From Lingula anatina (Eukaryota > Animalia > Brachiopoda), in assembly GCA_051362555.1 (NCBI GenBank), contig CM120643.1, forward strand, positions 27,904,848 through 27,968,847: a stretch of 64,000 bases of DNA. Reading direction: 5' to 3'. The translations under genes were made by a program, and so were the position numbers. The notes below the pieces were generated by a model that had not been told where the DNA came from, searched no databases, and worked only from the letters and a program-made list of their open reading frames with translations. Each line of letters begins with the position of its first letter. The stretch's first letter is position 1. This document shows positions 2,829 through 41,516 of this stretch, one piece after another.

Positions 2829-4451
2829 TGATAATTCTTTGGTAATATAATATAATGATAATTCTTTGGTGTAGGGGCGAACATTTTAAAAACGAACAAG
2901 TTTATCAGGTTTTTGAAAAGAATGACCTTCACAAGACAAAATGTATTTGGTTTTGGATATCAGTGATCTCTGCTTTGTAATAAGTCAAAAATAGCTGCTG
3001 AGCGAGGTGATTGCGGATGTGCGCATGCGCTGACAACCCGGTGATGTAACGCCTCGTGCCGGGAGCGTCATGCGCGGTGAGGGCTGACATATGTAAGATC
3101 TGATATAGAGTGGCATTGGTATGGCCGGTAGTCTGATTCAGTCAGATAATGATCTTTAACGTATGTCTTGTTGACAGAAAATGTAGTCATAATGACTTGC
3201 AGAAGTTTCGTGAATTTACAAAGGAAAGTAATACATTTGAAAAGATTATACACGTAGGCCTATTTGAAAAGTTGAGGAATAACGTCCTGCGTACAAAATT
3301 TATATAACACCTTTCTATCTAGCAAGCTAGGCCTATTTAATTTATTCTGAGAAATATTGATGTAAACGGTGCTTATATTTCTGATTCCCTCGACTAAAAT
3401 ATCATCGCATGCAAGGCAACACGACTTCTACTAATCCTAAAAAAGTCTTACAACCCAACCAGCTTTTATTTAAAATGATTGCAGTCGTTCTTTATGACTA
3501 GAACGAACAATGTATAACGTGCATGTTCTGTTTATATAGAAAACACACACACACACGAAGGCACCAATGTTCAATCAAAAACAGATCCAGGAAGTTAATA
3601 AGTTGATTTGGGGGGGGGGGGGGGGGGGGGGGGGGGGCTCACAGCTGAGAAGGTAGTGCTCCTCATGTAGTAATGTAGTATTTAGTGTAATCTGTTGTCT
3701 ATTAAAGTACATTAAGACTGTTTTAGTAATTATTCATGTTTATTAATATGTTTCAGGATGCCTTTTTTTATCTTTTAAGGAGAATAAAGGTTTGTATAGT
3801 TGAGTTTGATTAAGCAGGGGAGAGGACAGGGTTGACTAAACCCGTCACTGAAAATAAACATCAGCACAATTGCGAAGATATGAACGCTCGATTGTGATAG
3901 TTGTGACTGGGCCAAAGAGCAGTGCAACACGATGATACTTGACCATTCACATACAAAATGTGTTAGGTGAGAATTTAATATAATAATAGCTTTTTATTAT
4001 TCATAAGCAAATATCCACGATAATCAACAGAATGACTACTACCTTTTTATACTTTTACAATATCGATTAACCAGCATGAGATTTTTTTCTGAAAGAATTT
4101 TTTTACTGTAAGTAAACATTATCGTTGGCAACTGTTTGGTTCCACTGTTTTGTGCAGCTAAACGTTGGTACATATTACCATTCCTATCTCCTTATGATAG
4201 TCATAATCATGGTGCCACTCATTTTGGAACCGATCCTTTTTACAGTTTTTATCATCTTGGCTTCAATAAATAGTTCTTATATTGTATACTCCTAATGTTC
4301 TTGTGTTCTGGTGACTGTTTGTTCACCAGAAGTGGTTGGGACAAGACCCCGGACAAAATGGCGTTACCAGGTGTGTTGCCCACTGGCAGTTGTACTTGAC
4401 TATTGGAAGTTCTAAAGATCTGATTTAATTCTGGGATTGTGTCTCACTGTG

Positions 4452-7400
4452 TTATGAGGCAGGGGTCTTTGGGTTCCGGAATTCATCATCACTGTGCCCA
4501 GTGGAACGCAGCCGAGAACTGAACCCGAAGAAAGGCATGTGTGGGCGGGACGGTTGCTTGTTTGGTTTTACGTTCTCGTGCTGCTCTGGTTTCGGGGGCA
4601 TTAAACCGATGACATTCAACGGTCTTGCCATTGGATAAGAAGAACTGAAGGCACCCGGGCTTGAGTTTGCAGTATGGCCAGTAGCTTCGGCTTCGTTGGT
4701 GTGTTCCACGGGATTGTTCACAACTATGGGCTCGGGTACAAAAATTAGCCCAGGACTGTTGCCATGTCCAGGAGCTTTGCCATGTCCTGGCGACGCCGGC
4801 GCTGGGTCGTATTTAAAATTACCCAGTCTTGAATGTGAATTGAAGAAATGACTAAGACCCCCTCTTCTTAGAGTATTATCTGGGTTCCGTTGTCCAGGGT
4901 AACCAGCTGGTGGGGCGATCGTGGGCGCCATATTGTTTCCCTCGTCGTATGCCGTTGACTGGTCTAGTCCAAGTGCTGCCAGGAAATCTGCTAGGTTCAT
5001 GACAGGAGTTAGAGGGGACGCGGGAACGTTTGACTGAAATTATGAAAAGCAATGAAACATCATTTTTGGAAAAAAATTGACTTTGAGTAGATGAAAATCA
5101 GATGGGGTCTAATAATATTCAAGTGATCACAATTCAAGGAAATGAGGTATATTAAGTGTTTCTTCTTGGTACAAAGGGCACTATTTCGTTATATGTACCT
5201 TTACACGTCACGTAAAGTCGACATAACCGAATACTCACGTCACAATCTGCACATTCAGGCACCTCTGTTGCTTCACTGTCGATGGAATCCTCTGCAGCGA
5301 CAGCTCCCAGCGTCGCCAGAGTGAAAGCATTTCCATCAGTCCCCGTGGATGTGGTGGGGGAGGTGGTTGGGGTTGCTGAGGTCGTGGATGCCGTTGTGGT
5401 TGAACTGGTTGTAGAGGCCTCCGTGGTCGTGCTGGTTGTGGTGGTTGAAGTAGATGTTGTTGTGGTAGCCGCACTGATAACTGGAATTGGAAACGAAAAT
5501 ACTTCAATTTGGTATTGAATTTTGAATTCAAGAGCAATACGGTGTGAAATGTGTAAACTAAGTGCTTATATCACGGACATTAAAGATAATATTACCCTTT
5601 TTTGAAAGAATGCTTAACTTTTACACAAGGACGGAAGTGAATTAAGAAACATTCTGTTATCAGTTTCAGTTATATTTAATAAAACAATCAAAATATACTG
5701 GTACATGATGATGTCATACGGAAAAGAATAGCATAGGGATCGATAGCACTGAAAGAGGGTACTAAGTGCGCGTGTGAGTATCTGTGCGAGAGAGAAAGAG
5801 AGAGAGAGAGAAAGAAAGAAAGAGAGGGAGATGTTTTTGCGTACATTATCACTGACCTTTCACATATTGACGTAGCGTTATATTCATGTCACATGTCAGT
5901 TCGTACGCTTGGTACGTCCGCACGACAGTCTGTCCATTACAGGTGTGGTGATACAAGTGATCCTGTGTCACGTCCCGTAGCGACATCCTGTTGACTAAAT
6001 ACCAGGTGCGAGGGGAAGGGTACAGGGGTCTTAACACAGGGTCAGGCAGGAGCAGCAATTCACTGGTATTCGAACACCGGACTTCAGTTGTGTTAGGTTC
6101 CAGTACCAACTCCGGTCGCTCGATGTCTTTGACGAATATGTACTGGTCGGTAAACCCTCCATTGCCGCAGATGTCTTTCACTGACCAAGATCGACGAATT
6201 AGTCTTGTACCGAAGCTAGAGTTTGATGCCACTATCAAATCTGTCGAGTTAATAGTGAGATGGGCGTCCAAAAGACACGACGATAAATTCTCAACGACTG
6301 CTTTGTCGTCGAACTTGCTGGGTCCCAAATCTCCATCATACTGTGGGCAGACCTCTGCCGTATGGTTCTCAAATGGACGTAGAATGAGTTGTTGGTTTAC
6401 GACAATGCTGATGATTTGCTCAGCTCTGGCAACATGGCCACAGCTATCAATAACGGTCCAGGATCGTCGGATTTTTGTGTCACACAAATCGTCATTTGTC
6501 GCACGATCTGCGCTCTCGACTGTTACATCGAGCCCGCATGGAGAGATGGACTCGGCGTCTCCACCGGTGTTGTCAAAGTCGTTCCAATCTGTCCCACAAG
6601 GTACTGAAATCGGTGCTGGTACGAAATTGAAAGCCGGTGGTTCCGAACGGACAATAATCAACTGGTCGGCGGTGGCGGTCTGTCCACAAACGTCAACTGC
6701 CGTCCACGTCCGTCTTACCCTAAGAGTACAATCGTTGTCGTTCAAAATTTCATCGGCCGTTTGGATTGTGACTTGGTGACCGCACAGAGAGGTAGCCAGT
6801 GCCGGTCCCCCTGTGCTCTCTGGGTCTGTCCAGTCTGTGTCACATGACACCGTGATAGTGGGCGGGACAAAGGTGAAGTTTGGCGCACCTGCTGGCACAA
6901 CCGTCACGTTTTGTACGAATACGGACTGCTTACCGCACTCGTCCGTTGCCCTCCATGTTCTTATCTCAGTGTAGTCATAGGGGCAGGACCCATTCACTCT
7001 AACCACGCTGTAAAGCTCTACATCCACGGCAAGACCGCAGTGGCCTGCTGCCGTCGGTGCCTCGTCGAAGCTAGGGACGCTGTTACAAGAAGCCGTCAGG
7101 GTTTCTGGTACGCCAGACATAAAGGGCGGAGTGTCGTAGTCAACGAATATTCCTTGAGTTCTTGTGACGAAATTCCCACATTCATCCTGGCCTGTCCACG
7201 TGCGGGTGATGTTGTAAATGTTAGGGCAGAATGAAGAACTCATCTCCTCCTCAAAATCGACATCAATTGAGGTGATGTTGGGCGGCTGGGGAATGTTTGC
7301 GCATGTGTCGTTAAGGGTGATAAACAGATCAGTGGGAAATCCCACAGGAAATCCGAAATCCAGGCCCGTCTTGTGGTGGACGGTTATGAGCTGCGTACGG

Positions 7401-9477
7401 GAGGCGCTGTTACCGCAGATGTCGGTCACTGTCCACGTGCGAGTAACTGTCCGAGAGCCTCCATTAGCAGTCCCATTGGTCAAGGTATCGGAATGGGTGA
7501 GGCGTGGGTAGGAGACGTAAGCACACGAATTATCTCTGTCCAGCGTGGCCGACCTGTCCACTGCCAGGTAGGGGCCCAGGTTTTCATCACAGGTGAAAAT
7601 GTCCTCAACCTCGGGTAGCAATATGGTGGGTGGAATGGTAATTTGGAGATAGATGATCTGCCGGACAGAGATTTGATTTCCACAGTCATCAACGGCTGTC
7701 CAGGTCCGTGCGATGCTCTCATTACACAGGTTGTCGCTGATTATTCTGTCCGTGAAATTAACACCGACCGGATCTCCGCACGCAGAGCGGGCGATTGCCC
7801 ACCCGCCTGTAAGATCCGGGTTCTTTATATATGTGCCACATTCCACTGTGATGTTCGGGGGCACAAAAGTAAAAACAGGGAGACCCATCTCCCTGATAGT
7901 TATCATCTGCACCACATGCACCATATTTTCACACGCATCCTTTGCTGTATACGTACGGGTTATCGTCGCGTTGCATGCTGCGGTTGTCGGCAGAGGATTT
8001 GGCGCTTCTTCAATTTTGAGCGTTACGTCTGCGCAGATTCCATTTGAGACAACATCCGGGACATCTGGGAGTTGCCCTTGACAACGTAAATTTAAATCTG
8101 CATCGGATCCTCTTCGGACAAAGGTCAAAGTCGGGGCAATGTTGCACCAAGTGCAAACATCTAGGGTATGAAATAAATTTAAATTAGACCTTAGTAAAAA
8201 TTCATTTATGCCCAATTTGAATAAGTTTGAATAGTTTGACAATGCACGTTTAACCCGCTGTATTTAAAAAGTAACAATGCATCTGAAGGTGGATTTTTAC
8301 AAATTTTCTTAAAGGTGTACAGGACACGATGACCATATCCTAACGACCAAAGTTCCCCCCCCCCCCCTTTTGGAATAAAACCAAACAATTCAAAATAAAA
8401 AGAATAAAAAAACGGAGACAAAGATTCAGAAAGTTCATGCAAACAAAAAAACATGCCGGAAAATTGTATAAATAGACATACACATACCCTTACTGCATTC
8501 TCTACATGGACCCCCGGGGTCCTCCAGTAAGCGCAGACTGCCCCCTCTTCTAACTTGGCAGCACTCGGCCACGCTCTCCGTCCTTCCTTGGACACCGGTC
8601 ATCGTGTGATTGACCTCCCGACCTGCCGGACACTGGGGACCAGTGTAACATTGCACTGAAATACGGAGGAGAATGAAGGTAAGTACACTTGCTTTGGATG
8701 ATTACGAAAATGAAATACAATCGCCTTGGATGATTACGAAAATGAAACCTGCATACGAATGGACGACAGGAGGGTTGTAATGCTCATGTAAAATAGGCCT
8801 ACTACACCCGTGAAAATTGGGCACCAGTTTTGAAATAGTAGCAGATAGTACTTGAATGTTATCTTTCTAAATACATGTAGCTCCAAATATTATTCGCGTA
8901 ACCTCTTAAATAAAAAGGACAGCGGGGTGCCGTACGAATTTTATCTCTATTATTCATCTACGTATAGTTTATCAGCCTGACTGATGCAGATTTCTACACA
9001 TATATAAAATTCTTGTAAATAAAGAAGGCTGTCGTGCCCCAGACTAAGCGGCTGACACCCCCTCACCTAGATCAACCACACACATATGTACAGTCTATCT
9101 ACTCTACTTATTGGCACATTTAGCTGTGCTAGAGTAATGCATTATGCATTTTCTATATTATTTCAGCTCCGGAGTTACGACTTTAACGTTTGCCAGCAAA
9201 TCATTGATTATATCAAAATGTAATCAGAGGTGTACTAATTAGACTTTATCCCATTTAGTTAACTCAGTAGATATCTGTAAGATATCTGCCCTCTTCTTCA
9301 GTGATATTCAAATTCAGTGCTACTGTTGAAGGATTTGGTTGCATTCTTGGCCCCGTTTCCAGTATATCCAGTGATCAGGTTCCAGTAATCAGCCCACTGA
9401 CACCTACCTTGTGAATATGCCGGGGAGATGACAGCACACATAGTCAAGATCAAAGTTGCAAGAAAATATCTGTCCAT
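4452..9477 (-). CDS. Secreted ~1120-aa protein: signal peptide, 6-Cys N-terminal module, nine HYR-like (4-Cys) repeats, Thr/Ser mucin-like stalk, Pro/Gly/His low-complexity tail
   Basis: Coding exons 9477-9408 (MDRYFLATLILTMCAVISPAYSQ), 8655-8488 (alternative in-phase donor after 8494), 8160-5857, 5480-5239, 5033-4452. All introns are GT..AG with polypyrimidine tracts; phases 1/1/1/0 keep one open frame to TAA at 4452-4454. Confidence 0.88.
5857..8160 (-). CDS. 2304-bp single exon encoding nine ~85-aa HYR-like repeats
   Basis: Recurrent motif P.F..VP..ITV.C...CG..V...D....C...I.RTWTA.D.CG....Q.I in ORF 5849-8242; acceptor tttcataccctag before 8160, donor AAAG|GTCAGT after 5857. Confidence 0.9.
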
Positions 9478-10148
9478 GGTCTTCTCCGGTGTCACTGCGA
9501 TGAAAGAAAATAGTGAATAAAAATTGTGGCCAGTAATTTATATGTTGCTTTACTGATATTCGAATTCAATGTGGGTGAGAATAATCAATGATCTTCCGTC
9601 ACAGCTGTGTACTATAGTAAGGCAGAGCAAGCACGCTACTCCCCTATATAAAGGATACCCCTATGATATTATGGAGAAAATGAATAATTACTTCCAAGAA
9701 ATAATAATGAGAAAAAAAGGACTATACCGATAGTGATAAAACTCAACTCCCCATAAAATGTCAGCTACTGTCGCTGCTAGCGGTTTCCCTGCATCATACA
9801 CCAGTAGTACCAGTACCATCAGTTTGAATGAACCGATGTGGCGACCGTTGATGTTACCTAATTTGTTGATAACATCGCTGTTTTTAATTACTTCATTAAT
9901 GGCAATCTCTCCCCGCATCCCCGCCTGTGTCTCCATGATAGAATTTAAGATAACTTCCCCCACTGTTACACCTGCCATGCATACCGTCGTAATACCATGT
10001 TACATATTATAATATTTGTCGTGCATCTACGTAAGTACTTTGCACCGGTTGGTACGACTGTCTGTTCTCGGCTTACCTGTACGTTACCTGTATTGGCAGG
10101 CACCAGTGATAAAAGGATTTTGCTTCAAGGAGCATATAATTAAGCAAA

Positions 10149-10999: not shown

Positions 11000-11077
11000 C
11001 AGTTCTCATCAATTTTTCGCTTCACCCATCGGCTGCTGACACGGCTTTGCCCGTTTATCTTTTCTTACCTCTATATA
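11000..11077 (-). promoter_or_regulatory. Putative TATA box, initiator and short non-coding first exon of the HYR-repeat gene
   Basis: TATATA at 11072-11077, TCAG initiator-like motif ~33 nt downstream (~11039), donor CTG|GTAAGT after 11000; matching acceptor tttctttcatcgcag before 9494. Confidence 0.5.
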
Positions 11078-11363: not shown

Positions 11364-13332
11364 TAGTAGGCTTGTTAAGGACCAAAAAATGGCCAAACGC
11401 TGCATTTTGTAGTACAAATGTCTAACTTGGCATAAATGTTCCTTGGGCCAAAAGAAAATTTTTTATCCAAAGAGACGCCCTCTATCGATACATTAATTAG
11501 CATAAATTATGCAAATTATGTGCCAAAATATATAATATTTCATATTTCCATTAATTTTTGGCCTAGAAACATGTATAGATTATCAAACCTGACTAAAGAA
11601 GGGACAAGGAACCCATTTTTGATCATTTGGAAGCAATTGGTGGCCATTTTGTGCCTCAAATCCAAGATGGCCGCCACCAGCCATTTTGAAAGTGGACATA
11701 ATTTTGCTATTTTATGTTGAATTTTGAAGCGTTTGGTCTAACTATACTTGATATATATATCGATTCTTACTATTTTGGGGGTGAAAAAGTCATTTTTGAT
11801 ATTGTTATGGTGATAGTAGATGATTTGAAGGAACAAAGAGGGTGTTTTAAGTGCCTACCAAGATATGTGTGAACGCTGCAAAACCATGGATATTAATAAC
11901 CCGTATTCAAATATATCTTAATGCAATTTTTTGTTATATACCATCTCTATTGGACTATATTATGAGCAAAAAAACACATTTTTACCATTATGGAGGCCAT
12001 TGGTGGCCGTTTTATCCCTCAAATCCAAGATGGCCGCCAAAAACCATTTTGAAATTGGGCATAATTCGCTATTTTAAAACTATATGTATTACATCTTTGT
12101 AAATGAGTAATACGTCGTTTTATATTATTTTCTGTTGCAGAATACATTATCTGTTTCATGAAATGTGAGTACAAACTATTTTAGCCTCCAAAATCAATAT
12201 GCATGTAGGCTTAAGTTGTCAAATAGATTTACATGTGCCATGTAGTCTAATTAGTACAAAATGTTTTATTAAATCCCAAAGAGCTTGAAACAAGCGTCAA
12301 AGACCAAAATGGCAAAAAAGGTAAAGAACACATACTTGGTGCTTTGGAGACAATTGGTAGTCATTTTGATCCTTAAATCCAAGATGGCCGCCAGTCACAA
12401 TTTTGAAATACGGGTAAGGCATAACTCATCAATTTGAAGCTATTGCTCTTACACTAGCATGTTATACATCGTTTCTTATCATTTGTGTTGTAGAAGTCAA
12501 GTCTTATCTCTTCTGAGATATTATACAAAAAGAAAATATTACAAGGCTCCAACACCAATACAGGCTTACGTCTGCACCTTCGCTTGTATACGTCTTGAAG
12601 TCAAATTTGTGCAAAAATATGTTATATAACAATTATAAAATGGTTTTGCCAGACATAGATTAAGTGCAAGAGACCAGCATGGCTGATTCGACTTTATGGT
12701 GACTGCTGTTAGCTATTCTGTTGTTCATATCCAAGAGCCTGTCACTATTTTAAAATGATGGCATAATTTACCTTTTTGAGCTGTTGGACTTTCATATATG
12801 ATCGTAATACATCAATTGATACTATTTTGGAAGGACGTAATTAATTTCCGGTGTTATTCTGGTGACAGAGGATAATAACAAAGGCATAAGGTATTTTAAG
12901 ATGATTCCAAGATGAATTTTCCTGTAGTTGTCATATACTGTAGATGTTTTGCGCTTGTTCGTCCATTGGAAACAATGAGAACTATGTAGTTGCCTTATGG
13001 ATTTCTATTGGTAGTGAGATGACTTGTCTGGCCAAATCATGCTAGGAATGATCACTGGCACTGTCAACTAGGAAAAGAGGTTGCTTCCTCGACTTTTTTG
13101 CTTTATCCCTCTTGCCTACCTGCGCAGCTGCTGCTTTCTAGTTGGTTTTGCAGATTCCTTCTTTTGTGTAAAGATACCAACTTTCCTCTGATTCGACATG
13201 TTCTCATGCATTGATTTGTTTCTCTGGAAACTGGATTTTAATATATTGTTTGGCTGTTTCTCATAGGACACTGACAAAACCTCAATTCTTACTGGCTGTT
13301 GTCTTATTGGCCTACCAGAGCTGATCATGCAT

Positions 13333-13383
<51 letters not shown>

Positions 13384-15107
13384 TGCTGCTGGATGATTTT
13401 GCAGACAAGATCTGGAGCTATTTCAAAGCAAAGTCCATTTGCTTGTCTTTAACGGGCATTTTCGCATCGATACAACTAACCAAGTTCCATAGTATTATAA
13501 GACGACACATATTTCACCCTTCAAATTTTCTGGACTATATTTAACATGCAAATGCAAGCCCCAGTGACTGGGACATAAATGTACATGTGGCTTTTTGGTT
13601 CACATTGACCAGTAAAAGATTAATAATATAATACCACTATGTATATATATTTATTGCTTACCTTTAAATTATTCAGTATCTTTTAGTGGATGGTCACTTA
13701 AGATAAATCTAGATGATATATTGGAGCATGTGGTTCGGGTTCCTCATTTTTGTTACAGACTCAACAAAACTCATCTTGGAATTCATTTTACAACCTTATA
13801 TTACGGTACCTTTTTATTATCTTCTGTCGCCAAATTAGCACCGGAAAATTACTTTTGAGCCCCCAGAATAGTACCATTTTACCTAATACAAGCCCACAGT
13901 TCAAAGGTTATATATTACACCAAATTATTAAAATAGCGGCATGCAACCAACACTTGGTTTTGATCAAAATTATGGCTAACAATTATCCTCATGCGGTCAA
14001 AGATGTATTATTTTGCTTTAATGCAGCCATTTTGTTTGCTGACACTTGTTTTATAGATCGGGCAAAAGCAGTTTTGCACTAATTGGATTACTAATTGTAC
14101 ATATAAACTGCAGGCCCATGTGGCGACTGAATCCTATATTTATTTGGAGGCTTATAAAAGTTTCTATTTACATTTTATGAAACTGAAAATGCATTCTGCA
14201 CCAGGAAATAATCAAAAATGACGTATGGCACGCTTATGAAGGTGTGATAGTTTCAAAATGGTGAATAATGCTCAATTTGAAAATGGCGTATGAGGGTCAT
14301 CTTGGATTTGAGGCACAAACTTGATGAAACAAATAATGTATTCTGCACCAGAAAATAATATAAAACGACGTATTACTCATTTACAAAGATGTAATACATA
14401 TAGTTTCAAAATAGCGAATTATGCCCAATTTCAAAATGGTTTTTGGCGGCCATCTTGGATTTGAGGGACAAAATGGCCACAATGGCCTCCATAATGGTAA
14501 AAATGAGTTTTTTGCTCATAATTTAGTCCATTATGGATAGTATATAACAAAAAATTGCATTGAGATATATTTGAATACGGGTTATCAATATCCATGGTTT
14601 TGCAGTCTTCACACATATCTTGGTAGGCACTTAAATCACCCTCTTTGTTTCTTCAAATCACCTACTATCACCATAACAATATCAAAAATGACTTTTGCAC
14701 CCCCAAAATAGTAGGAATTGATATATATATCAAGTATAGTTAGACCAAACGCTTCAAAATTCAACATAAAATAGCAAAATTATGTCCATTTTCAAAATGG
14801 TGGGTGGCGGCCATCTTGGATTTGAGGCACAAAATGGCCACCAATTGCTTCCAAATGATCAAAAATGGGTTCCTTGTCCCTTATTTAGTCAGGTTTGATA
14901 ATCTACACATGTTTCTAGGCCAAAAATTAATGGAAATATGAAATATTATATATTTTGGCACATAATTTGCATAATTTATGCTAATTAATGTATCGATAGA
15001 GGGCGTCTCTTTGGATAAAAAATTTTCTTTTGGCCCAAGGTACATTTATGCCAAGTTAGACATTTGTACTATAAAATGCAGCGTTTGACCTCTTAACAAG
15101 CCTACTA
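11364..15107. mobile_element. Non-autonomous long-TIR DNA transposon, Academ-like
   Basis: Termini TAGTAGGCTTGTTAAG...CTTAACAAGCCTACTA, 3-bp TSD ATT (11361-11363, 15108-15110), ~800-bp near-identical inverted arms (11364-~12160 vs ~14326-15107), ~360-bp subrepeats with CAAGATGGCCGCC; no intact transposase ORF. Confidence 0.8.
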
Positions 15108-27150: not shown

Positions 27151-28629
27151 CACTACCCAATTAAATCATTGCATAATACACAATACAGCAGTGCAATAGA
27201 CATGGTAGTCAGTTCATTAGTAGCTACACACCTGATTACACACTTCTTCATTCACATATTTTATATGAGATCGGATTTCTTTGAAAAAAGAACGCATTTT
27301 TACCAAGGCATACCTTCGAAACTAAAATATTCCATATTAAATGTCAAGTCTATAAATATCTTACTTGATAGACTAACGCAACTTTAAATGCTTGTTGCTA
27401 GGGTAATATGCTACCTAGCAACTGTGGCTAAGGTTAATTTGGGTTTTAATTGCCTTAAAATAGTCTAGAGTGATAGTACTGATGCCCTGAAATATAGTTA
27501 TTAGCATTTCTTAACCATTTAAACTGGACAAGAAAGGTCTAATTAGTTTGTTACTAAGGAAATTCACTTCCATAGCAACGGTTGCTAAGCAAAGCTTTGA
27601 AATTTTGGGCACTGCCTTGAAAATGATCAGCATAGTCCAAAGAACATTTGTGCCAAGTTTCATGCTTTTTCCACATTTTGAGCAATTTGGCCAATATATA
27701 GCACCAGTCACCCAGACTAATATACAGGTACACATGAATGGTGAATGGCAGTACGGGTTCCCACATGATTCGCACAGGTGGGGCGCTGAAGTAAGTGTCT
27801 GGCTTTTAGTTTCAAGTTCCGTTTTTCAAAAACGAACCTGGCAACCAGAAACTAGTGTCGTTTTTCAAGCGGACTACCATTCACCTCATACCGGTAGCTT
27901 TGACTTGGTAACGTTTCAAATGTGTATTTTAAAATCCTTTACACTGGACGGCGTCCTTACTGCGTTCTGGGTGCGCCCATGAAACTGGCATCGTTGTGGT
28001 CTTGAAAAGGAGGCACAAACATCGCTTTGGTTGCAAAATTAGTGTTCAATGATTGGCCTCTTGTGGGCACGTAAAGTGTTATTGTTTTTTTCTCTCAAAC
28101 AAGGCGGTACTACGGGACGCAGAAAGGACGCCGTCCAGTGTAAAGGGGGTATTACTAACGATGACTAAACAAAAATCTGTTCAAAGTGATATTCAAAGTA
28201 ATGCCGATATTGTTATTTGATGGTGAAAAGACAGATTTCAAACACAAAATCAATGGGCACAAATTTTACCACTGTTTGCTTACAATAACCACGTTAGCGG
28301 TGGAAGGTGAGTGCGTTGAAATAGTCACAAAGTTTAAAGGGATAATAACTCTTCGAATGAGATCTATATTTCACAATTAAAACATCGTAAACAACTCATA
28401 GAAATAAAATATATTCTGTTTTACCACAAAAACGGCAGTTATAGATATTATTCTGACATCTGAGCTTGTCATCAGACCACGTGACCTCCACAGATGGCTA
28501 TACTCTGAAAACATCTCTTAAGACATTATAACATAAAACCAAAGAAAAAAAAAACACAGGGACTAACTTTGAATGTAGAAATAGATCTTGGACGACTAGA
28601 CGACGAAGGGTCCATGAAATTTTTCTAAC

Positions 28630-28749
28630 CTTTGTACAGTCCGAACACCAGCCGATCTCAACCGCTTTACAGCACACTGCCTGGGTTTCTTTAACCACAG
28701 TCACTGTCACCATGGCAACAGCAAGTAATGTGACGAAATAGCCAGCCAT
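28630..28749 (-). pseudogene. Mytimycin/Diedel-like copy B: intact first coding exon only, own exons 2-3 missing (pseudogene or alternative first exon)
   Basis: MAGYFVTLLAVAMVTVTVVKETQAVCCKAVEIGWCSDCTK with acceptor before 28752 and donor GTTAGA; no CGxGxCNxFGC exon found between 25100 and 27350. Confidence 0.75.
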
Positions 28750-30254
28750 TGTCTGAAATCATCCAACAAATGGACGCTGTTCAAGTGTACCGTTAAGACT
28801 GTTATTTTAGAAGGAAAGACTAAAAATTTTGAAAGCTGTTTTTTTCGACAGCTGAGGTTTCAAAATCATGATAATAAAAGTTAGAATATCCAGATATGAA
28901 TTAAAAAAGAAAATGTTTACAATGCACATGTGCTCTCAAATGGATGTCAAACAATCTTCAAAAACAATGAAAATATTTCATGTGCAATATTCCTAGGCCA
29001 TGCATTGCCATGCAAGACAGTACATATACAGAATATGCACTGTTCTACGCCTTAAATCTTTACGCCCAACAACCGCAAGAAAAATACGACCCAAACTACA
29101 TGTACTTTTCTAAATTTTATATAATTTGTCTGGGGATTAAATCAGCTACGACAGAGAATGGAAAAACCATCTAAAATAATCTCAAAATCCGGATCCGATG
29201 GTTGAATTCACTCTGAAAACTCACGTTTTCTGTTGTTGTTTTTTACACTTAATATACCAATAACATATTTGAGACAGTGACCGTAAAATGCAAAGGCTAA
29301 CCTTTCAAATAACTTAAAACTTACCGGTGAGAAAAGCTTCAGAATGTCGAGAGTGGAGCTGCGAAATCTGCTGAACACAAGTCTACCGTAAGTGAGACGA
29401 AAGTGGTCGTACTAGAAATGTTTAAAAGATCAACATCAGAAACCAAACCCTTTTGTTTCACTGTGATATCAAACATGAAAGGAACGAGGAAAAACAAATT
29501 TCCTGCGAATATTCTGGTTGTCTGTTGGCACGTTCAGACTTATTGCAACTTAAACCGGAAATTAACCAACTGACGTCACCAGTAATTATTACTCAGGTTT
29601 TATTGTGTGTCTCTATGGTATCTGGTCTACGTCATTAAGACGTCTTTACGTTAGATCAGTTCTGAAAGTAGTCTTTGTTGAGTTGTGTTCGTTGTTAAGT
29701 GAACGAGTCATAACAGCGATCTGCTTGTGGACATAATTCGTATATATCAAAGTGAGGGGTTCCCGGGAGACATCCCGCACAGACTGCCACCACATGACAC
29801 CGGTGACAACTCCAGATTAGTTCACCTGAAGAAAAACTTGTGATAGGTCAAAACGTTGTGAATTTCGTTCCAACGTTAGTTCCAGTATAAGAATTTATTT
29901 TTCATTACTCTTGCTAAAATGAAAGAATAATTTGGAAAACAGAGATAAAATTTACATTTCAAAGTTCTTTGAGAAGGCTGTCGCAAAACCTTCTAAACAA
30001 AGTTACGAAAGTTGACTAAACTTCTTGTTTGTTAGAATTGTGTACCTTGTATAAAACAAAACTGAAATAATAGGTCACGTGTACATTAATGACGTGGCCA
30101 TTGGGGTTTGCAGGTGCAAAGCAGTTTTGTTCGCATATTTGAAGGGTGCCCGCAATGCTTTGACTCTAAGCATGTAGGAGAAATTGGTAATATTTGTGGA
30201 TGTAGTGTTTTGCACGAAAACAAAAGGATAAAAAGACACTAAAGACACTGTCTG

Positions 30255-30531
30255 CAGTGGCGGATTTAGGGGGTATGTCAGGGGGTCCTGATCCCTCCTT
30301 GGTTTCCTTAAAAATCACACCAACGGCTCCCACTTGAAATTAGAATTTTGACCTGCTGAATCATAGTTTTAACCCGTACCAAATGGCACAGTTCGCCCTC
30401 TAAATTACTTTCAGCGGGCCTCGAACTCCAAGCCAAGGGGGTGGGTGGGGTGGGGGAGGGTCAGGTTGGCATCCGTGGCCTGTCATTCCTAAAAGCTAAC
30501 TCCCCTTCAAATAATCTTGGATCCGCCTCTG
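30255..30531. mobile_element. hAT-like MITE (paralogous copy ~47947-48224)
   Basis: Termini CAGTGGCGGATT / GGATCCGCCTCTG flanked by GTCTG on both sides; a canonical 8-bp TSD is not evident. Confidence 0.6.
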
Positions 30532-32979
30532 GTCTGTAATCATTCAGTGACAAAGCACAAAGCAGTTAATGCTGTCAGGCATCATCATTGGTCGTACACA
30601 TAAAAATAGAGCCAGGTATGTCCGAATAATATACGTCAAGGACGACTTAAAACTCGTAGTTATGTCATCTGTTGTGGTACTTCAACAAATGATAATAATA
30701 ATACAATAACAGTTTTTGTATTTCTGACAATCACGCGGAATGCGTTATCCATCTTACAAGTCCTAATTACATTTTTAAGAAGCATTATTTTAATCCTTGA
30801 CTATGACTTCTGACAAAGTGAGCACTTGTCCTTAATTTAACCAGTGTTGTCAATCTAGAGTGGTCTGTTAAAACGTAAAAGCAGGTGCTCTTTTATAGAT
30901 GTATGTACATATAGTTTAACCTTCTGAACGTTCTGAAAGCACACGATTCGTCTTAGGACAGCAGGAAGATAACCATGTCTTTTCTCTTCTTGAAATCATT
31001 TACGAACATCAGTTAATCATTCGATGTTTTCATGTTTCATTCAACCCTGCTACTTCTACGTGCAAAGGTTCATTTGTTCACATTTTGCTTAAAAAATATG
31101 CTTTTAATATTTTCCATTAATGATCTTATTACTCAGGCCGTATTTTTAAAATGATTTTATCGGATATGATAACCCTTTTCATCCATTCCTGTTATAATTA
31201 TTCCGAAAATTATAAGGAAAGAATAAGAATAATAGGTGTACTGAAACTGTAGTGAATAGAAATGTATGCGAAAAAAGCTCGTTATATTTCCACACTATTT
31301 GCCAGCTTGATAGCATACAGGCTATACGAATCGATGCAATATACTGGTAGTTCAAAAGCACTTCAAAGGTCGTCATCAAATGACATAAATTGTAAACACT
31401 GTGAGACAAATGAATTGCTTGACGCTTGTTGAATGGAAATAAAAACAAAGCAGCAAAGCTGTCAAATGTACAGACAAAGAGCAGAAAATAAAGATGCAGA
31501 AAATTGTCATTTTGCTAATTTTGATGCAATTATAAATAATTCTTATAACAGCAGAGTCAATCAAGGAGTTATAACAGACACGAAATTTTAATCACGCACA
31601 TCAGGCAACATCTTTATTCTACTTGAAATCATTACAGAACATCAGTTAATCATTCGATGTTTTCATATCTCATTCAATCCTTTTAATCTGTCAATCTGAT
31701 TGTATTCATCAAGAGTCCCCGTGGAGTTGGATTGATCTACAGAGAACTGCAGTTTCATTGGGAATGAGCCCTTAAACCTTTCTCTTGTTACATTTGTTTT
31801 GTTTTTTTAGATTTTTGCTATTTGAAAATTAATAGATCTGGTTCGTGTTTTCTACAAACCCTTGTTACCTCTTGATATGGGGCGTCTTTTTTAATTGCAC
31901 GACCTGGAGCTTGATTTAAAATTCCCGACGCCTTTTTTTTAAACCAATAATGTGTAAATTAAAATTATATACTTTATCGATGATTTGTGGCGTATACCTT
32001 TTATACATGTAGTATTGACAAAGTATTTTGTTTAAATGCGCTGATCAACGAACTGTAGGCTTACGTAAACATAATGATGAACTGAACGGCAAAGTACGCA
32101 GTAGATCTCTTAATTCTTAGGTTTCAGCAGTTGGGCAAAATGAAATTAAATGGTAATTAATTTTGTTTCAGAGTTCTAATAGAGGTAGGTCTACACATGT
32201 ACTGTTAGTACACTAATGAACGGAACGACAAAAGATGCAGTAGATCTCTTTATTTTAAGATTTCGGCAGTTGGGCAAAATGAAATTAGGTTGTGGTGATA
32301 AGAAGTCTTAAATGCTGAACTTGGTTTTACAACCTTTTCATACTACTCGATTCAGATCACGTGGATACAGAGTACTTCACAATCTAGAAATAAAATCACA
32401 AGAACGCAACAAACCCCAATATTTAATTGAAGGCTGATAATTTATTTGCAAGCAGCAATTTACAATATAACATGTACAGAACACAGATGTGACAATATTG
32501 AAATATAGCTAAAAACATTTTAGACGCATTCGGGATTGCTGAAAGGCATTTAGGTGCCTTAAAAGCATTGAAATTAAAAAAGTATGATAATATAGAAAAA
32601 AAAGCGTTAGAATGTAAATCTCTTGAATAGGTTTTTCACATCTGAATGTGGTAATCAAAAGGATTCAATTTGCATCAGGTATGCTTCCTTTTCTCAGCTT
32701 GCGTTGTTTCACAAGATCAACTTAAGCCTTGGAAATGGCGCCATTGCTGGAAAATCAAATTTGAAACTCATCATTTATCACCAAATGCTCAAAAGTTCTA
32801 CTGGTGACACATGACACAACAATACTACCAAAGTTAGTAAAGAAATAGTAAGTAAAACACTACACTACTCCAAGTTGATGGATACAGATAAAAAAAATAC
32901 CTAACCTCGGATGTCTTTAAGCGAACGACATCTTTGTTCAAAAGCATGTTTTGTTCAAAAGCACCATCAGCCAGCCTGG

Positions 32980-34108: not shown

Positions 34109-35177
34109 TGTAATGAAACAAATTTTTAACAATCGTTATCAAAGTAATTCCTATCATTATGGGCCATAAAGACCCCCATGGGAGCGTCCGGTAAATATTT
34201 GGGCGTTTGTAACAATTGATTGATTCATGTGACTGGAACCATTACCCTCGTCAGCACTGTGGCCAATAATTCTGGCGAGTTACACAACATGAGCAGGACG
34301 ACCTTGCGGAACAGAAGTAACGTTCTGGTGCTAACAACGTCTTTACGAGCTTACCTATACCCCTTCCCCTTTCATAGGTGAGAACGATAAAATTATCTCC
34401 TTACACAGAGCCCACCTCACGCTGGGTGAAGATACCACGGAAGAGACACAGAGGATACTACTCGTTCGAGGTACCGATTGAGGGAGTTTCTACTCCCTCT
34501 GGCAGGTTCACTGGGGCGGTTGGTCGAATCTGATGGGACAAGGCTACGCTCGAGGCTCCGATTGAGAAAGTTTCTACTTTCTCTGGCAGGTTCACTGGGG
34601 CGGTTGATTGTTGGTTAGTTAGAAAGAGTGATACGTTGGCAGGAGTACCAACGACAGGGAAAATCTCCGTCAGATTCTCCCGACAGGCTTTGCGTAGCAA
34701 CGAAGGCCTGAGTTACGTTGGCTGGGGCACCAACGACGAGGGAAATATCTCCCGTGTAGAGTAGGCAGACCTTAGGCAGGAGGTCGATTAGGACAAGCGA
34801 TACGTTGGCTGGGGGCACCAACGTTAAGGGATATCTCAGTCAGATTATCCCGACAGGGTCAGCGTAGCTACGGGACCCTAGGTTACCGTCGGCAGGAATA
34901 ATTCCGAAGTGAAGCCCACCAGTACCAGTACGATGTTAACCGATGCCTACACCTCCTAGGATTATTGACTTTACCTAGTAGCACCCTGGATTATGCATTT
35001 ATATTAAACTCTTCATCAGTATCATTTGAATTATATCTGGACACATTGAACTTTTTCTTTTATTGCCTCCTTACAAACTTCGTTGGATTTAAATAAAACT
35101 GTTTATTGACAAAAAGAACTGTTTCTTGGGATTGAACTTTTATTAGCACGCTACCTTTAGACTCAAAAACCGCTACA
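34109..35177 (+). repeat. 5' LTR (1069 bp)
   Basis: TGTAATGAAAC...CCGCTACA; no difference from the 3' LTR seen by eye. Confidence 0.97.
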
Positions 35178-35181
35178 AATT

Positions 35182-35201
35182 TGGTGGCAGCGGTGGGATT
35201 C
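35182..35201 (+). other. Primer-binding site complementary to the tRNA-Leu 3' end
   Basis: TGGTGGCAGCGGTGGGATTC is the reverse complement of GAATCCCACCGCTGCCA-CCA, the 3' end of metazoan tRNA-Leu(AAG/TAG). Confidence 0.85.
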
Positions 35202-35227
35202 AAAAGTTGTCACGTCCTCTAAGAATT

Positions 35228-36487
35228 ATGGCAGATGAAACTAGGATATACGACCACTCAAGACAATGGGACAGTGCTTTTGGGAGTTGTAATCCATGTT
35301 TGAGCCCGGTGTTGGATGATACTCCGCTCTTTGCAGACCCGAGGAGAAGACTGGAGTTTGAAACTCCCTGCAACACTAATCCCTTTATTACTGTTAACAC
35401 CAATCCATTCCTGGACGACGATCATTTCATCAACCCCAACCTGTTTGTGAACCAGGAGGCAGGCCGAACGATTGGATGGGAGAGGGTACCGTCTACACTT
35501 AGAGCCAAACCTGAGTATGTGTCAGAACAATTTCCTAACCCCTTTTATCCCATGCCGACCAGTATGCAGACCCGTGTCAAGGAAAAAGCAGGCCCGTCTA
35601 TTAAGCTAGGCACGTTTGATGGAAAATCTTCATGGGATGATTATAAAGCTCAATTTGACATTTGTGCCATGGTGTATCAGTGGAGTAATGAAGAGAAAAC
35701 GGGCCATTTGGCAACCAACCTACGAGGAGATGCGGCGCAAGTATTGGGCGATCTCCCACCAGAACACCGCTTTAACTACGACCTATTGACAACAGCACTA
35801 GAGAGGAGATTCAGCCCCAAAAACAGAACCGAATTTTACAGGGTGCAAGCAAGGATGAGGAAAAGGAGTCCCAAAGAAACCCTTAGTGAGTTAGCCCAGG
35901 CAATAAGGCGTTTAGTTAGCCTGGGATGGACCAATGAAACTGCTGAAGTGAAGGACACTTTTATGCGAGAGTATTTTCTAGACGCGTTAGATGATACCCG
36001 TTTGAGATTGGATGTTATGCGATATCGGCCTAGAACCATTGATGATTGTGAATCGCTAGCTATTGAATTGGAAGCTTGCCAAGATGCCGAGACTGCAAGA
36101 GGGCGGAGATTAAATTTGGTACGTTCTGCTGCTGCAATTACCCCTTCTGACGAATCTCACCCGACGGGCAAGGTGTTGGATGATGTAACTCGTTCCTTGG
36201 AAAAGATCTCATCCAAAGTGGATTTATTAGAAGCTCAAATGTTGCGAACCAAACAAGTGCCACCACCCTCTAGGACCGTGCAGTGTTTTAAATGTGGTAG
36301 GAGGGGACATTTTGCTCGAGAATGTCAAGTACTGAATGTAAAACCAGTCACTCCACCCCGTAGGAATGTCCAGTGCTTTAACTGTGGAGGATTTGGACAT
36401 GTGGCCAGAAATTGTGTACCAGTAAAAGTTGGACCCCCACCAGCACCTAGAAGAGCAGAGGCAGTCAGTGCGAATCAGTTAAACTAG
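35228..36487 (+). CDS. gag: Gag with two CCHC zinc knuckles
   Basis: First ATG 35228; FDGKSSWDDY capsid-like region; CFKCGRRGHFAREC and CFNCGGFGHVARNC. Confidence 0.95.
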   Translation: MADETRIYDHSRQWDSAFGSCNPCLSPVLDDTPLFADPRRRLEFETPCNTNPFITVNTNPFLDDDHFINPNLFVNQEAGRTIGWERVPSTLRAKPEYVSEQFPNPFYPMPTSMQTRVKEKAGPSIKLGTFDGKSSWDDYKAQFDICAMVYQWSNEEKTGHLATNLRGDAAQVLGDLPPEHRFNYDLLTTALERRFSPKNRTEFYRVQARMRKRSPKETLSELAQAIRRLVSLGWTNETAEVKDTFMREYFLDALDDTRLRLDVMRYRPRTIDDCESLAIELEACQDAETARGRRLNLVRSAAAITPSDESHPTGKVLDDVTRSLEKISSKVDLLEAQMLRTKQVPPPSRTVQCFKCGRRGHFARECQVLNVKPVTPPRRNVQCFNCGGFGHVARNCVPVKVGPPPAPRRAEAVSANQLN

Positions 36488-39400
36488 CGGCGGTTGGAGA
36501 AGAGAGGCATCGGCCAACCGTGGAGAACAGTAAGACCTCTCGACAAGATGATTCCATATTCCTTCATGTAAGTTTGTTTGGGAGGAATTGTTCATTTTTG
36601 GTGGATACCGGATCAGATCTTACAATTATTGCAGAGCGTGTGTTTTTACAGTTTCCAAAAGGAGAAAGGCCAAGTGTTAGGCCCTCAACAAAGCAGATAC
36701 AGGGAATTACGGGTACCTTCATGGACTTGAAAGGTGAGACAACTGTCCCCATGTCTATAAATAACCACAAGTTTGATATCCCAGTCATTGTTGCCGATGT
36801 ACCTTGGGAAGGTATACTTGGAATGAACGTGTTGAGACAATTACGCTGTACAATTAATTTGCAAAAACTAACTGTGACCATTGGCGAAGGGGATAGGGAG
36901 GAAATTCCGCTGATAACTGCTGAAAGAAATGGTTATCGTTGTTGCCGTGTCTCATTCAAAGAAGATACAGTTATACCCCCAAAGTCGGAGATGGTTATTA
37001 CCGGACAGCTGCATAAATCTGGTCCCACACTCACTGAGGGTATTACAGAGTCAAGATTGAAGAATAATGTACACGCGTCAGTTGCTTATGCGTTGGTTGA
37101 TCTCCGTGGGACGTCTGTTCCCCTGCGCATCATGAATAAGGGTGAATATCCTCTTAAACTTGGACGTGGAACTGTAGCAGCTTTGATAAAACCAGACGTA
37201 GCCAGTGTCATTGGGAACGAAGGACAGGTCGACCAGGCTGATGCTGAGACTACTGACCAAAGTTTACCGGCTCATATGGAACCTCTATGGGACAAAATTA
37301 AAGTAAACCTTAACCCGACAGAGGCGGAGAAAGTAGCCAGAGTACTCCGTGAAAATAGCGATGTGTTTGCAAAGGATTCAAATGATCTTGGGAAAACTGG
37401 ACTGATAAAACATACAATAAACACTGGTAACAGTCATCCAATCCGCCAGCCAGCAAGAAGAATTCCAATACATCGGGTAAAGGAAGCAGACGATGAACTA
37501 GAGAAGATGTTGTCCCAAGGTTTGGTTGAACCTTCAAGCAGTGCCTGGGCTTCACCGATAGTGTTGGTTACCAAAAAGGACGGTTCCATCAGGTTCTGCA
37601 TAGATTACCGTCGGCTGAATGATGTTACACAGAAAGATGCATATCCACTGCCTCGTATAGATGAAACGTTAGACACCTTGTACGGCGCTAAGTGGTTCTC
37701 CACACTAGACCTCATGAGCGGCTATCATCAAGTTGAGATGAGTCCAGCAGACAAGCACAAGACGGCATTCTGCACACGTCAGGGTCTTTTCCAGTTCAAG
37801 GTTATGCCATTTGGATTATGTAATGCCCCCGCGACCTTTGAACGGCTCATGGAGTTAATCTTGGCGGGCCTCCATTGGAAAACCTGTTTAATTTACTTGG
37901 ATGATGTCATCATCTTTGGAAGTACAGTAGAGCAACACCTAGAACGTCTTCAAACCGTCCTTCAGCGCCTACGACAAGCAGGACTTAAACTCAAGCCATC
38001 TAAATGCTCCCTGTTCCAAAAAGAGGTTGAGTACCTTGGACACATAGTCTCCGAACGAGGGGTAGAAACTGACCCAAACAAGACAAGAGCAGTGGTGGAT
38101 TGGCCGACTCCAAACAATGTGTCAGATGTTAGAAGTTTCCTGGGCCTCTGTTCCTATTACCGACGGTTTGTTAGAAATTTTACCAACATCGCCAGTCCCC
38201 TACATCGTCTTACTGAGAAGGATCAGCCGTTCATTTGGGGAGAAGACCAAGTATGTGCCTTTCAGAAGCTTAAATCTGCGCTCAGCACACCCCCAGTGCT
38301 GGCATTTCCAAATGCACAAGCCCAGTTTATCTTAGACACTGATGCCAGCCACCGTGGGATTGGAGCGGTGCTTAGTCAAGTTCAGGATGGCCATGAACGA
38401 GTCATAGCGTACGCAAGCAAGTCGCTTAGTAAGCCAGAGACAAGATACTGTGTAACCAGGAAAGAACTCTTGGCAGTGGTGCATTTTGTAAAGTACTTTC
38501 GGCATTATCTTTATGGAAGACATTTTCTTATCCGCACAGACCATGGGTCATTAAGGTGGCTTATGAACTTTAAGGATCCTGAGGGGCAATGGGCCCGGTG
38601 GTTGCAGGTGTTGGGAGAGTATGACTATACCATAGAGCATCGTCCTGGAACCAAGCATGCCAATGCTGATAGTCTTAGCCGGAGGCCCTGTAATCAATGT
38701 GGAGGGCAGTGTGAAGAAGAACCGACTGTTGTTAAAGGAAAATCAATTAAATGCTGTGCTTTTACCCCAGCAAGTGACTGGGTACAACCCCTCTCACCTG
38801 AGGAAATTCTATCTCTTCAATTGAAAGACCCTGTGCTAGGGAAGTTGATTGCCTGGAAGGAAAATGATAGTCGTCCAGGTGCAGATGAAATTGCATCAGA
38901 ATGTTCTACCCTGAAGAAATTTGTGAGCCAGTGGGATCATTTGTGTTTAAAGAATGGTGTTCTATACCGTCGATGGCAAATGCATGGACACCCAGTGATA
39001 CAACTAATTGCTCCTAAACCGCTGAGAAAGGATCTTTTTCAACAAATTCATGCACACCCCACAGGTGGCCACTTGGGACTTAACCGGATGATGAAGGCTC
39101 TCAAACAACGATGCTACTGGCCGTACATGAAGGTGGACGTGAGATTATGGATAAAACAATGTCACACATGTGGAGCTACCAAAAATCCACCAAGAAGAGT
39201 AAAAGCAAAATTAGGCCAGCTTCCAGTGGGTTGCACTTTGGAACGAATTGCTATTGACATAAAAGGACCACTGCATATCACTGATAGAGGTAACCGGTAC
39301 ATTATGGTTGTTAGCGATTACTTTACCAAATGGACAGAGGCATATCCGATCCCTGACCAGGAGTCGCGCACCATAGCTGAAAAGCTTGTTGAGGAGTTTA

Positions 39401-40377: not shown

Positions 40378-40432
40378 ATTGTTAGAACTGTTTTATTTCA
40401 CTGATTTTAATGGACTCGAGGACGAGTCCTGC

Positions 40433-40445
40433 GAGAGGAGGGGGC
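40433..40445 (+). other. Polypurine tract
   Basis: GAGAGGAGGGGG immediately before the 3' LTR. Confidence 0.85.
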
Positions 40446-40447
40446 AT

Positions 40448-41516
40448 TGTAATGAAACAAATTTTTAACAATCGTTATCAAAGTAATTCCTATCATTATG
40501 GGCCATAAAGACCCCCATGGGAGCGTCCGGTAAATATTTGGGCGTTTGTAACAATTGATTGATTCATGTGACTGGAACCATTACCCTCGTCAGCACTGTG
40601 GCCAATAATTCTGGCGAGTTACACAACATGAGCAGGACGACCTTGCGGAACAGAAGTAACGTTCTGGTGCTAACAACGTCTTTACGAGCTTACCTATACC
40701 CCTTCCCCTTTCATAGGTGAGAACGATAAAATTATCTCCTTACACAGAGCCCACCTCACGCTGGGTGAAGATACCACGGAAGAGACACAGAGGATACTAC
40801 TCGTTCGAGGTACCGATTGAGGGAGTTTCTACTCCCTCTGGCAGGTTCACTGGGGCGGTTGGTCGAATCTGATGGGACAAGGCTACGCTCGAGGCTCCGA
40901 TTGAGAAAGTTTCTACTTTCTCTGGCAGGTTCACTGGGGCGGTTGATTGTTGGTTAGTTAGAAAGAGTGATACGTTGGCAGGAGTACCAACGACAGGGAA
41001 AATCTCCGTCAGATTCTCCCGACAGGCTTTGCGTAGCAACGAAGGCCTGAGTTACGTTGGCTGGGGCACCAACGACGAGGGAAATATCTCCCGTGTAGAG
41101 TAGGCAGACCTTAGGCAGGAGGTCGATTAGGACAAGCGATACGTTGGCTGGGGGCACCAACGTTAAGGGATATCTCAGTCAGATTATCCCGACAGGGTCA
41201 GCGTAGCTACGGGACCCTAGGTTACCGTCGGCAGGAATAATTCCGAAGTGAAGCCCACCAGTACCAGTACGATGTTAACCGATGCCTACACCTCCTAGGA
41301 TTATTGACTTTACCTAGTAGCACCCTGGATTATGCATTTATATTAAACTCTTCATCAGTATCATTTGAATTATATCTGGACACATTGAACTTTTTCTTTT
41401 ATTGCCTCCTTACAAACTTCGTTGGATTTAAATAAAACTGTTTATTGACAAAAAGAACTGTTTCTTGGGATTGAACTTTTATTAGCACGCTACCTTTAGA
41501 CTCAAAAACCGCTACA
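40448..41516 (+). repeat. 3' LTR (1069 bp)
   Basis: Direct repeat of 34109-35177, followed by TSD ATAC. Confidence 0.97.

What the first reader, a model, noticed from the sequence alone, without database searches (positions are those of the whole stretch)
5857..8160. Bacteroidetes-style HYR-like repeat array in one exon of an intron-containing secreted animal gene (candidate horizontal transfer)
Seen: nine ~85-aa repeats ending in I.RTWT(A/V).D.CGN...Q.I lie in a single 2304-bp exon with phase-1 introns at both ends. It is joined to an animal signal-peptide exon, a 6-Cys exon and a mucin-like exon, and carries many N-x-S/T sequons. Knowledge: this repeat signature is typical of giant T9SS / gliding-motility-associated surface proteins of Flavobacteria and Saprospiraceae and differs from the Cys-poor HYR of echinoderm hyalin. 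Inference: a bacterial adhesin-like array captured and domesticated by exon shuffling into an extracellular glycoprotein (mucus, adhesive or matrix). Introns and flanking eukaryotic transposons argue against contamination.
Basis: partly seen in the sequence, partly recalled or inferred. Interest (0 to 1): 0.8.

Follow-up and report, generated by a model that had tools for sequence, protein, structure and literature searches.

The report
Brachiopod glycoprotein with bacterial-type stalk
A real, spliced gene of the brachiopod Lingula encodes a protein with a secretion signal and nine repeats of a kind found mainly in giant bacterial surface proteins, likely taken up long ago by gene transfer and predicted to form a disulfide-stapled rod, though relatives in probable protists leave the donor open.

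Summary
A 2304-bp exon (phase 1 at both ends) encodes nine HYR_4C (PF23237) Ig-like repeats inside a five-coding-exon, 1121-aa secreted gene of Lingula anatina, which RefSeq splits into two models. It is not contamination: contigs of two DNA runs join the exon to its introns, one splice joint is read in RNA, and 17 of 26 listed exon variants are silent. A Lingula paralog has the same plan. Named relatives are bacterial, mostly Bacteroidota T9SS proteins; no other animal appeared in the rows shown.

The free tree puts Lingula among bacteria, but one eukaryotic origin is not rejected (p-AU 0.45). Transfer is likely; a Bacteroidota donor is about even odds.

Remodelling is clearer. The linker DxxxP motif, kept at 93-100% of junctions elsewhere, survives at 2 of 18 Lingula junctions; sequons are 2.5-fold enriched; cysteine co-loss points to disulfides stapling neighbouring units. 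Best reading: a calcium-independent, glycosylated extracellular rod. Tissue and ligand are unknown.

The parts
11000..11009 (-). 3' end of an upstream exon giving the longer N-terminus of RefSeq isoform X1; its 5' end was not mapped
   Evidence: The only match to the X1 start followed by a GT donor in the window; protein P0286
9408..9496 (-). Signal-peptide exon; ATG at 9477; aa 1-23; phase-1 donor
   Evidence: most hydrophobic window at aa 4-6; joint 8655-9408 in 4 RNA reads
8488..8655 (-). Six-cysteine domain exon, aa 24-79, phase 1-1; no Pfam family; homologous to the same region of the paralog
   Evidence: global score 103 against shuffles mean -18, max 40 of 2000
5857..8160 (-). HYR_4C array exon, aa 80-847: leading CxxC plus nine Ig-like units, 34 Cys, 18 sequons, phase 1-1
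   Evidence: AF2 of units 4-6 mean pLDDT 91.6, mostly beta strands; no indel listed in three DNA runs
5239..5480 (-). Thr/Ser-rich exon, aa 848-928; aa 851-893 is 81% S+T
   Evidence: same junctions as RefSeq XP_013403825.1
4452..5033 (-). Last coding exon, aa 929-1121, Pro/Gly-rich tail, no Pfam family, no membrane segment
   Evidence: RNA reads over 4336-5003 in two runs

Best explanation
The gene encodes a 1121-aa Lingula protein with a signal peptide whose nine HYR_4C units are predicted to form an extracellular Ig-like rod, likely stapled by disulfides between neighbouring units, and the array was likely acquired once by horizontal transfer, most probably from a Bacteroidota surface-protein gene. 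Shown: gene structure, linkage to host introns, one splice joint, excess of silent variants, a paralog with the same plan, loss of the linker aspartate motif, sequon excess. Predicted: the fold. Inferred: after capture the array lost the T9SS tail, came under a host signal peptide and six-cysteine tip, and duplicated; it gave up calcium-type linkers and relies on inter-unit disulfides and N-glycans; it works as a spacer or structural strand in mucus or matrix that holds the six-cysteine tip away from a Thr-rich, likely O-glycosylated base.
For: Host gene: contig pieces 5843-9700 and 6115-9700 join exon and introns at even depth, with gaps only in introns; 17 silent and 9 replacement changes among 26 listed exon variants, pN/pS 0.16, p=7.5e-6; exon GC3 0.54, like the first two coding exons (0.54) and the Kunitz ORF (0.55). 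Relatives: apart from two Lingula rows, every row that names an organism names a bacterium; 70 of 77 genome loci are Bacteroidota; 16 of 20 Lingula units score better against size-matched T9SS samples than against the 3400-aa family in at least 93% of 300 draws. Lingula cassettes form one clade (96, 95) next to a T9SS protein (89, 87) in two quick trees and in the longer free search. Structure. Stapling: C1(n)-C2(n+1) and C3(n)-C4(n+1) are lost together (phi 0.69 and 0.94 in prokaryotes, 0.87 and 0.95 in the eukaryote-like set; within-unit phi at most 0.33). With the leading CxxC, an inter-unit scheme leaves none of the exon's 34 Cys unpaired (my reading). Linker DxxxP: 2519 of 2692 T9SS, 245 of 260 in the 3400-aa family, 2 of 18 Lingula. 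In SiiE an interface site using an Asp of the preceding domain binds Ca2+ and stiffens the rod (PMC5466336, passages); that is an analogy.
Against: A tree holding Lingula with 19 eukaryote-like rows is only 3.0 lnL worse, p-AU 0.45 (both searches unfinished). The top hit for 2 of 3 three-unit cassettes is P0030, a probable eukaryotic transcript product. Single-unit trees are unresolved. Higher scores to bacteria may reflect closeness to the family consensus, not kinship. The animal survey is thin: 120 of 420 and 150 of 7184 rows seen. RNA depth is very low in 3 runs and absent over the gene in 2; only 1 of 4 coding joints was listed. The paralog has no sequon excess (8 against 12.7).
Confidence: 0.5

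Rival explanations
1. Same protein and mechanism, but the array came by transfer from a microbial eukaryote (for example food of this filter feeder) that already carried a HYR_4C array.
For: A family of about 3300-3700 aa with 36-38 units, shared ends and no T9SS tail makes up 17 of the top 150 rows. Most members sit on contigs barely longer than the ORF; two such contigs start with the same 5' leader. P0030 tops two cassettes. The AU test does not reject a shared clade.
Against: Size-matched scores favour T9SS units for 16 of 20 Lingula units (the five other eukaryote-like proteins were left out of that test). The family's C-terminal domain is absent from both Lingula proteins (no Lingula row among 57). 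Free trees keep them apart.
Confidence: 0.2
2. The array is an old eukaryotic inheritance, kept in some protists and in brachiopods and lost or diverged beyond reach in most animals; no transfer into animals.
For: HYR_4C arrays occur in several probable eukaryotic families. The two Lingula paralogs are only about 34% identical, so the array is old in this lineage. AU non-rejection.
Against: No other animal, and no named eukaryote other than Lingula, in the rows seen, although the collection holds NCBI, UniRef and eukprot entries. It needs many independent losses. The array has no intron over 2.3 kb.
Confidence: 0.2
3. The units descend from ordinary animal HYR (hyalin) repeats that gained cysteines and converged on the bacterial pattern.
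For: Lingula has classical HYR proteins (PMC4595640 supplement tables 25 and 27). HYR and HYR_4C occur together in bacterial proteins.
Against: No PF02494 match at E<=1. Single units reach 40-50% identity to bacterial HYR_4C units with the four Cys in register.
Confidence: 0.06
4. Bacterial contamination or misassembly.
For: Low RNA depth.
Against: Continuous contigs across exon and introns in runs of two studies and matching pieces in a third run; splice joint; paralog; no T9SS tail.
Confidence: 0.01

Closest known systems
Pfam HYR_4C (PF23237) arrays in Bacteroidota T9SS surface proteins (Flavobacteriales, Saprospiraceae)
   Same: Same unit, 28-34% identity over long stretches, four-Cys register, tandem stalk.
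   Different: No T9SS C-terminal domain; animal signal peptide, introns, six-Cys tip and Thr-rich base; linker DxxxP nearly gone (2 of 18); four junctions with a rewired Cys pair, a pattern seen at 4 of 5432 prokaryotic junctions.
Unnamed 3300-3700-aa HYR_4C family of probable microbial eukaryotes (P0142, P0154, P0255, L078, L104 and others)
   Same: Secreted HYR_4C array without a T9SS tail; same inter-unit Cys co-loss.
   Different: 36-38 units, its own N- and C-terminal domains, linker motif kept (94%), sequons depleted (0.65 of expected).
Echinoderm hyalin and animal HYR (PF02494) proteins
   Same: Extracellular animal proteins built from tandem Ig-like HYR-type units (recalled knowledge).
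   Different: The Lingula units match PF23237 and not PF02494.
MSP130 (PMC11878542; abstract and passages read)
   Same: A proposed bacteria-to-animal transfer of an extracellular protein, also present in Lingula.
   Different: MSP130 is a whole-gene transfer spread over several bilaterian phyla; this is a repeat array inside a chimeric gene, seen so far only in Lingula.
SiiE and RTX adhesin stalks
   Same: Tandem beta-sandwich rod; Foldseek lists an RTX adhesin tetra-repeat and many cadherins at TM 0.24-0.40.
   Different: SiiE is stiffened by Ca2+ at domain interfaces (PMC5466336, passages); here the linker Asp motif is mostly lost and disulfides are inferred instead. The fold matches are generic.

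Membership tests
HYR_4C (PF23237) | Score above Pfam's gathering cut-off | tested here: met
   86.9 bits against 27, 6 stretches; paralog 80.4
HYR_4C (PF23237) | Four cysteines per unit | tested here: met
   5 of 9 units have four, 4 of 9 have three (read)
HYR_4C (PF23237) | Ig-like beta-sandwich | tested here: met
   Predicted only: AF2 units 4-6, pLDDT 91.6, pTM 0.75; Foldseek
T9SS cargo protein | C-terminal sorting domain | tested here: not met
   No such Pfam family in the last exon or in P0003 and P0007; own tail profiles found 165 of 268 proteins and neither Lingula one
Hyalin / HYR (PF02494) | PF02494 match | tested here: not met
   None at E<=1
Gel-forming mucin (RefSeq calls the paralog mucin-5B-like) | VWD, C8 and TIL domains with a long PTS region | tested here: not met
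   Only PF23237 found; PTS-like stretch is 43 aa
Horizontally acquired animal gene | Physical link to host DNA and host introns | tested here: met
Horizontally acquired animal gene | Expression and purifying selection | tested here: met
   One joint in 4 reads, sparse exon reads; 17 of 26 listed variants silent. Expression is low and tissue unknown.
Horizontally acquired animal gene | Absent from other animals and their unicellular relatives | tested here: inconclusive
   None in 120 of 420 and 150 of 7184 rows; the rest were not shown
Horizontally acquired animal gene | Supported nesting inside a donor clade | tested here: inconclusive
   Free trees nest it among bacteria without starred support; p-AU 0.45 for the eukaryote clade
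Lingula shell matrix protein | Listed in the shell proteome | tested here: inconclusive
   No row of supplement tables 25-26 of PMC4595640 fits by length and pI; gene ids could not be mapped

The most novel reading that the evidence does not exclude
A brachiopod ancestor captured the stalk of a Bacteroidota surface adhesin as one intronless exon, placed it between host exons, duplicated it into a gene family, and converted it from a calcium-linker rod into a calcium-independent, disulfide-stapled glycoprotein rod: a new animal extracellular protein family built from a bacterial adhesin stalk.
Probability: 0.4. Interest if true: 0.72.

Novelty: new variant of a known kind. Interest (0 to 1): 0.55.

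Why it matters
Most accepted bacteria-to-animal transfers are enzymes or toxins (recalled). A structural repeat array rebuilt into a chimeric extracellular protein would be a rarer case, and the changes here are specific and testable: loss of the linker aspartate, rewired inter-unit disulfides, added glycan sites. The work also repairs a split RefSeq model and shows HYR_4C arrays in probable microbial eukaryotes, which any test of origin must include. If the array is simply an old eukaryotic inheritance, interest falls to that of an uncharacterised glycoprotein family.

Tried and rejected
No whole genome is held, so Lingula paralogs could not be counted; the window holds no second array. The paralog's N-terminal 109 aa found only itself among 117 candidates of 650-2069 aa, and the Atlas gave no usable hit for the six-Cys domain: weak blanks. 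A single-sequence fold of the N-terminal half failed, pLDDT 31. The VIA-align wide search was never run, machine busy. PDB sequence search gave one weak hit, 2kpn, E 0.0024. Viral contigs: 31 pattern matches, none confirmed, so no viral carrier was seen. The single-unit tree (339 rows, 90 columns) was unresolved. The careful mixture-model tree did not finish, nor did the test with all five extra eukaryote-like rows. The first AU test (p 0.82) was against an under-searched tree and was redone. The rewired Cys junction occurs at 4 of 5432 prokaryotic junctions (P0164, L070) and 0 of 749 eukaryote-like ones; I tested it as a donor marker and rejected it, since those proteins rank 24th-264th by score and do not group with Lingula. 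The 3400-aa family could not be named: no eukaryote name, and its leader matched no paper. No RNA holder was listed; run X14 gave 0 reads. Earlier findings by sequence and place gave nothing.
Full report
Observation. The + strand at 5857-8160 is full of stops; the reading frame is on the minus strand. Five coding exons join in frame with AG/GT ends: 9477-9408, 8655-8488, 8160-5857, 5480-5239 and 5033-4452, giving 1121 aa with phases 1, 1, 1, 0. The 2304-bp exon holds a leading CxxC and nine units of 79-91 aa and matches only Pfam HYR_4C. It has 18 sequons against 7.2 expected (0 of 10000 shuffles; 2 of 165 T9SS proteins reach that ratio). No membrane segment follows the signal peptide.

Identity. 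The halves are 99% and 95% identical to Lingula anatina XP_013403828.1 (LOC106169070) and XP_013403825.1 (LOC106169068). RefSeq splits the gene: its first model leaves the frame near aa 369. Contigs of two DNA runs cross that place without a gap; the third run's listed pieces leave 7287-7326 open. An assembly error is therefore likely, a null allele possible. A paralog, XP_013403809.1 'mucin-5B-like', 1182 aa, has the same signal peptide, six-Cys domain, CxxC and 11 units at about 34% identity.

It is a host gene. Pieces 5843-9700 and 6115-9700 link the exon to introns at even depth, with gaps only in introns. Four RNA reads in one run span the 8655-9408 intron; other exons have a few reads in 3 of 4 runs, and a fifth run gave none. 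Between about 6 and 25 in 100 of each run were read. Of the 40 variants listed (71 more were not shown), 26 lie in the exon: 17 silent, 9 replacement, pN/pS 0.16.

Relatives. In one search (120 of 420 rows, 421-1343 aa) every row that names an organism is bacterial, apart from the two Lingula rows. In prokaryote genomes 70 of 77 kept loci are Bacteroidota, 4 Verrucomicrobiota, 2 Ignavibacteriota, 1 Pseudomonadota (the scan stopped after 19 of 64 parts). The Atlas lists only HYR_4C or HYR clusters and one unnamed set. The unfiltered search gave 7184 hits, 150 shown; none looked animal except the two Lingula halves (by eye). Seventeen of the 150 form a family of about 3300-3700 aa when complete, with shared ends and no T9SS tail. 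I read it as eukaryotic: contigs are usually one ORF plus short flanks, two begin with the same 5' leader, and two members come from the source 'merc' (that this is a marine eukaryote catalogue is recalled). Against this, one member is labelled Candidatus Poribacteria on an 8848-nt contig, one sits on 16-17 kb contigs and one on a 47 kb contig. No member has a eukaryote name. Five more proteins (P0030, P0076, P0084, P0180, P0262) I classed as eukaryote-like by eye. An archaeal array also exists.

Origin. Against size-matched samples, 16 of 20 Lingula units score higher with T9SS units than with the 3400-aa family, but P0030 is the best hit for 2 of 3 three-unit cassettes. On 64 cassette rows (242 columns; rows chosen largely by score to Lingula, out of about 340) Lingula is one clade (96, 95) beside T9SS protein P0036 (89, 87), apart from the eukaryote-like rows. 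After longer but unfinished searches, forcing Lingula together with 19 eukaryote-like rows costs 3.0 lnL, p-AU 0.45. So one origin in the Lingula line is supported and the donor is not resolved. I give a bacterial donor 0.5, a protist donor 0.2, inheritance with loss 0.2, descent from animal HYR 0.06.

How it likely works. Units 4-6 fold as tandem beta-sandwiches (pLDDT 91.6), with generic likeness to cadherin and adhesin stalks. Across about 5400 units, cysteines are lost in pairs across neighbours (C1 with the next unit's C2, C3 with the next unit's C4; phi 0.69-0.95) and not within units. In Lingula 14 of 18 junctions keep all four Cys and 4 keep only C1 and the next C4 (15 counted by script, 3 read by eye), so every interface has an even number. 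The leading CxxC could serve unit 1 and the last unit could close on itself, leaving none of 34 Cys unpaired; this is inference. The linker DxxxP is kept at 93-100% of junctions in all other groups and at 2 of 18 in Lingula. By analogy with SiiE, where an interface site including an Asp of the preceding domain binds calcium and stiffens the rod (PMC5466336, passages), I infer loss of calcium linkers. The product is most likely a secreted, glycosylated, stapled rod that spaces a six-Cys tip from a Thr-rich base, in mucus or matrix. Tissue, ligand and function are untested. No row of the shell-proteome tables fits it by length and pI.

What is known. HYR_4C is a Pfam family and the RefSeq entries carry it. 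Searches for 'HYR_4C' and 'HYR-like domain' found no paper; some searches gave listings with none on this gene by title or abstract start. The Lingula genome paper (PMC4595640; abstract, term search, supplement term search and parts 8-9 of 24) has no 'horizontal' or 'HYR' in its main text. PMC12716839 (term search) had no HYR passage. PMC11878542 (passages) gives the MSP130 precedent. The library lacks most subscription journals, and preprint supplements were closed, so a listing in a transfer screen could have been missed.

Verdict. A real, apparently undescribed chimeric animal gene family with a bacterial-type stalk and clear signs of remodelling; transfer likely, donor unresolved. New variant of a known kind, interest 0.55.

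Noticed in passing
P0142, P0154, P0170, P0171, P0181, P0255 and others; L078, L104, L119, L133, L086: An unnamed, conserved family of secreted 3300-3700-aa proteins with 36-38 HYR_4C units and their own Cys-rich C-terminal domain, probably from microbial eukaryotes; no named eukaryote carries it in the rows seen.
   Followed up: partly
L078:1-31 and L104:1-31: Two different transcript-like contigs begin with the same 31-nt leader ending in AG, just before the start codon: a likely spliced leader of an unidentified eukaryote; a library adapter is not excluded. It matched no paper and 2 of 155 loci.
   Followed up: partly
window near 7290; RefSeq LOC106169070 and LOC106169068: RefSeq splits this gene into two models at a frameshift that the window and two DNA runs do not show.
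   Followed up: partly
window 34109-41516 (+): LTR retrotransposon with 100% identical LTRs of about 1070 bp, TG...CA ends, a 4-bp target duplication and open gag and pol frames (protease, RT, RNase H, integrase order): a very recent insertion.
   Followed up: partly
window 11391-15090: Element with 769-bp terminal inverted repeats, 96% identical, just upstream of the gene's 5' exon; RNA reads there differ by 5-10% and likely come from other copies.
   Followed up: no
window 27462-31315 and 45106-49315: Two copies, 93-96% identical, of an unidentified repeat of about 4 kb.
   Followed up: no
window 61128-63515 (-): A 796-codon open frame, Pro/Gln/Met-rich and low in complexity, ending in one Kunitz domain; probably one large exon of another secreted-protein gene.
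   Followed up: no
P0164 and L070: Two Bacteroidota-type proteins have junctions that lose C3, the next C2 and the linker Asp together, as in Lingula; trees suggest convergence.
   Followed up: yes
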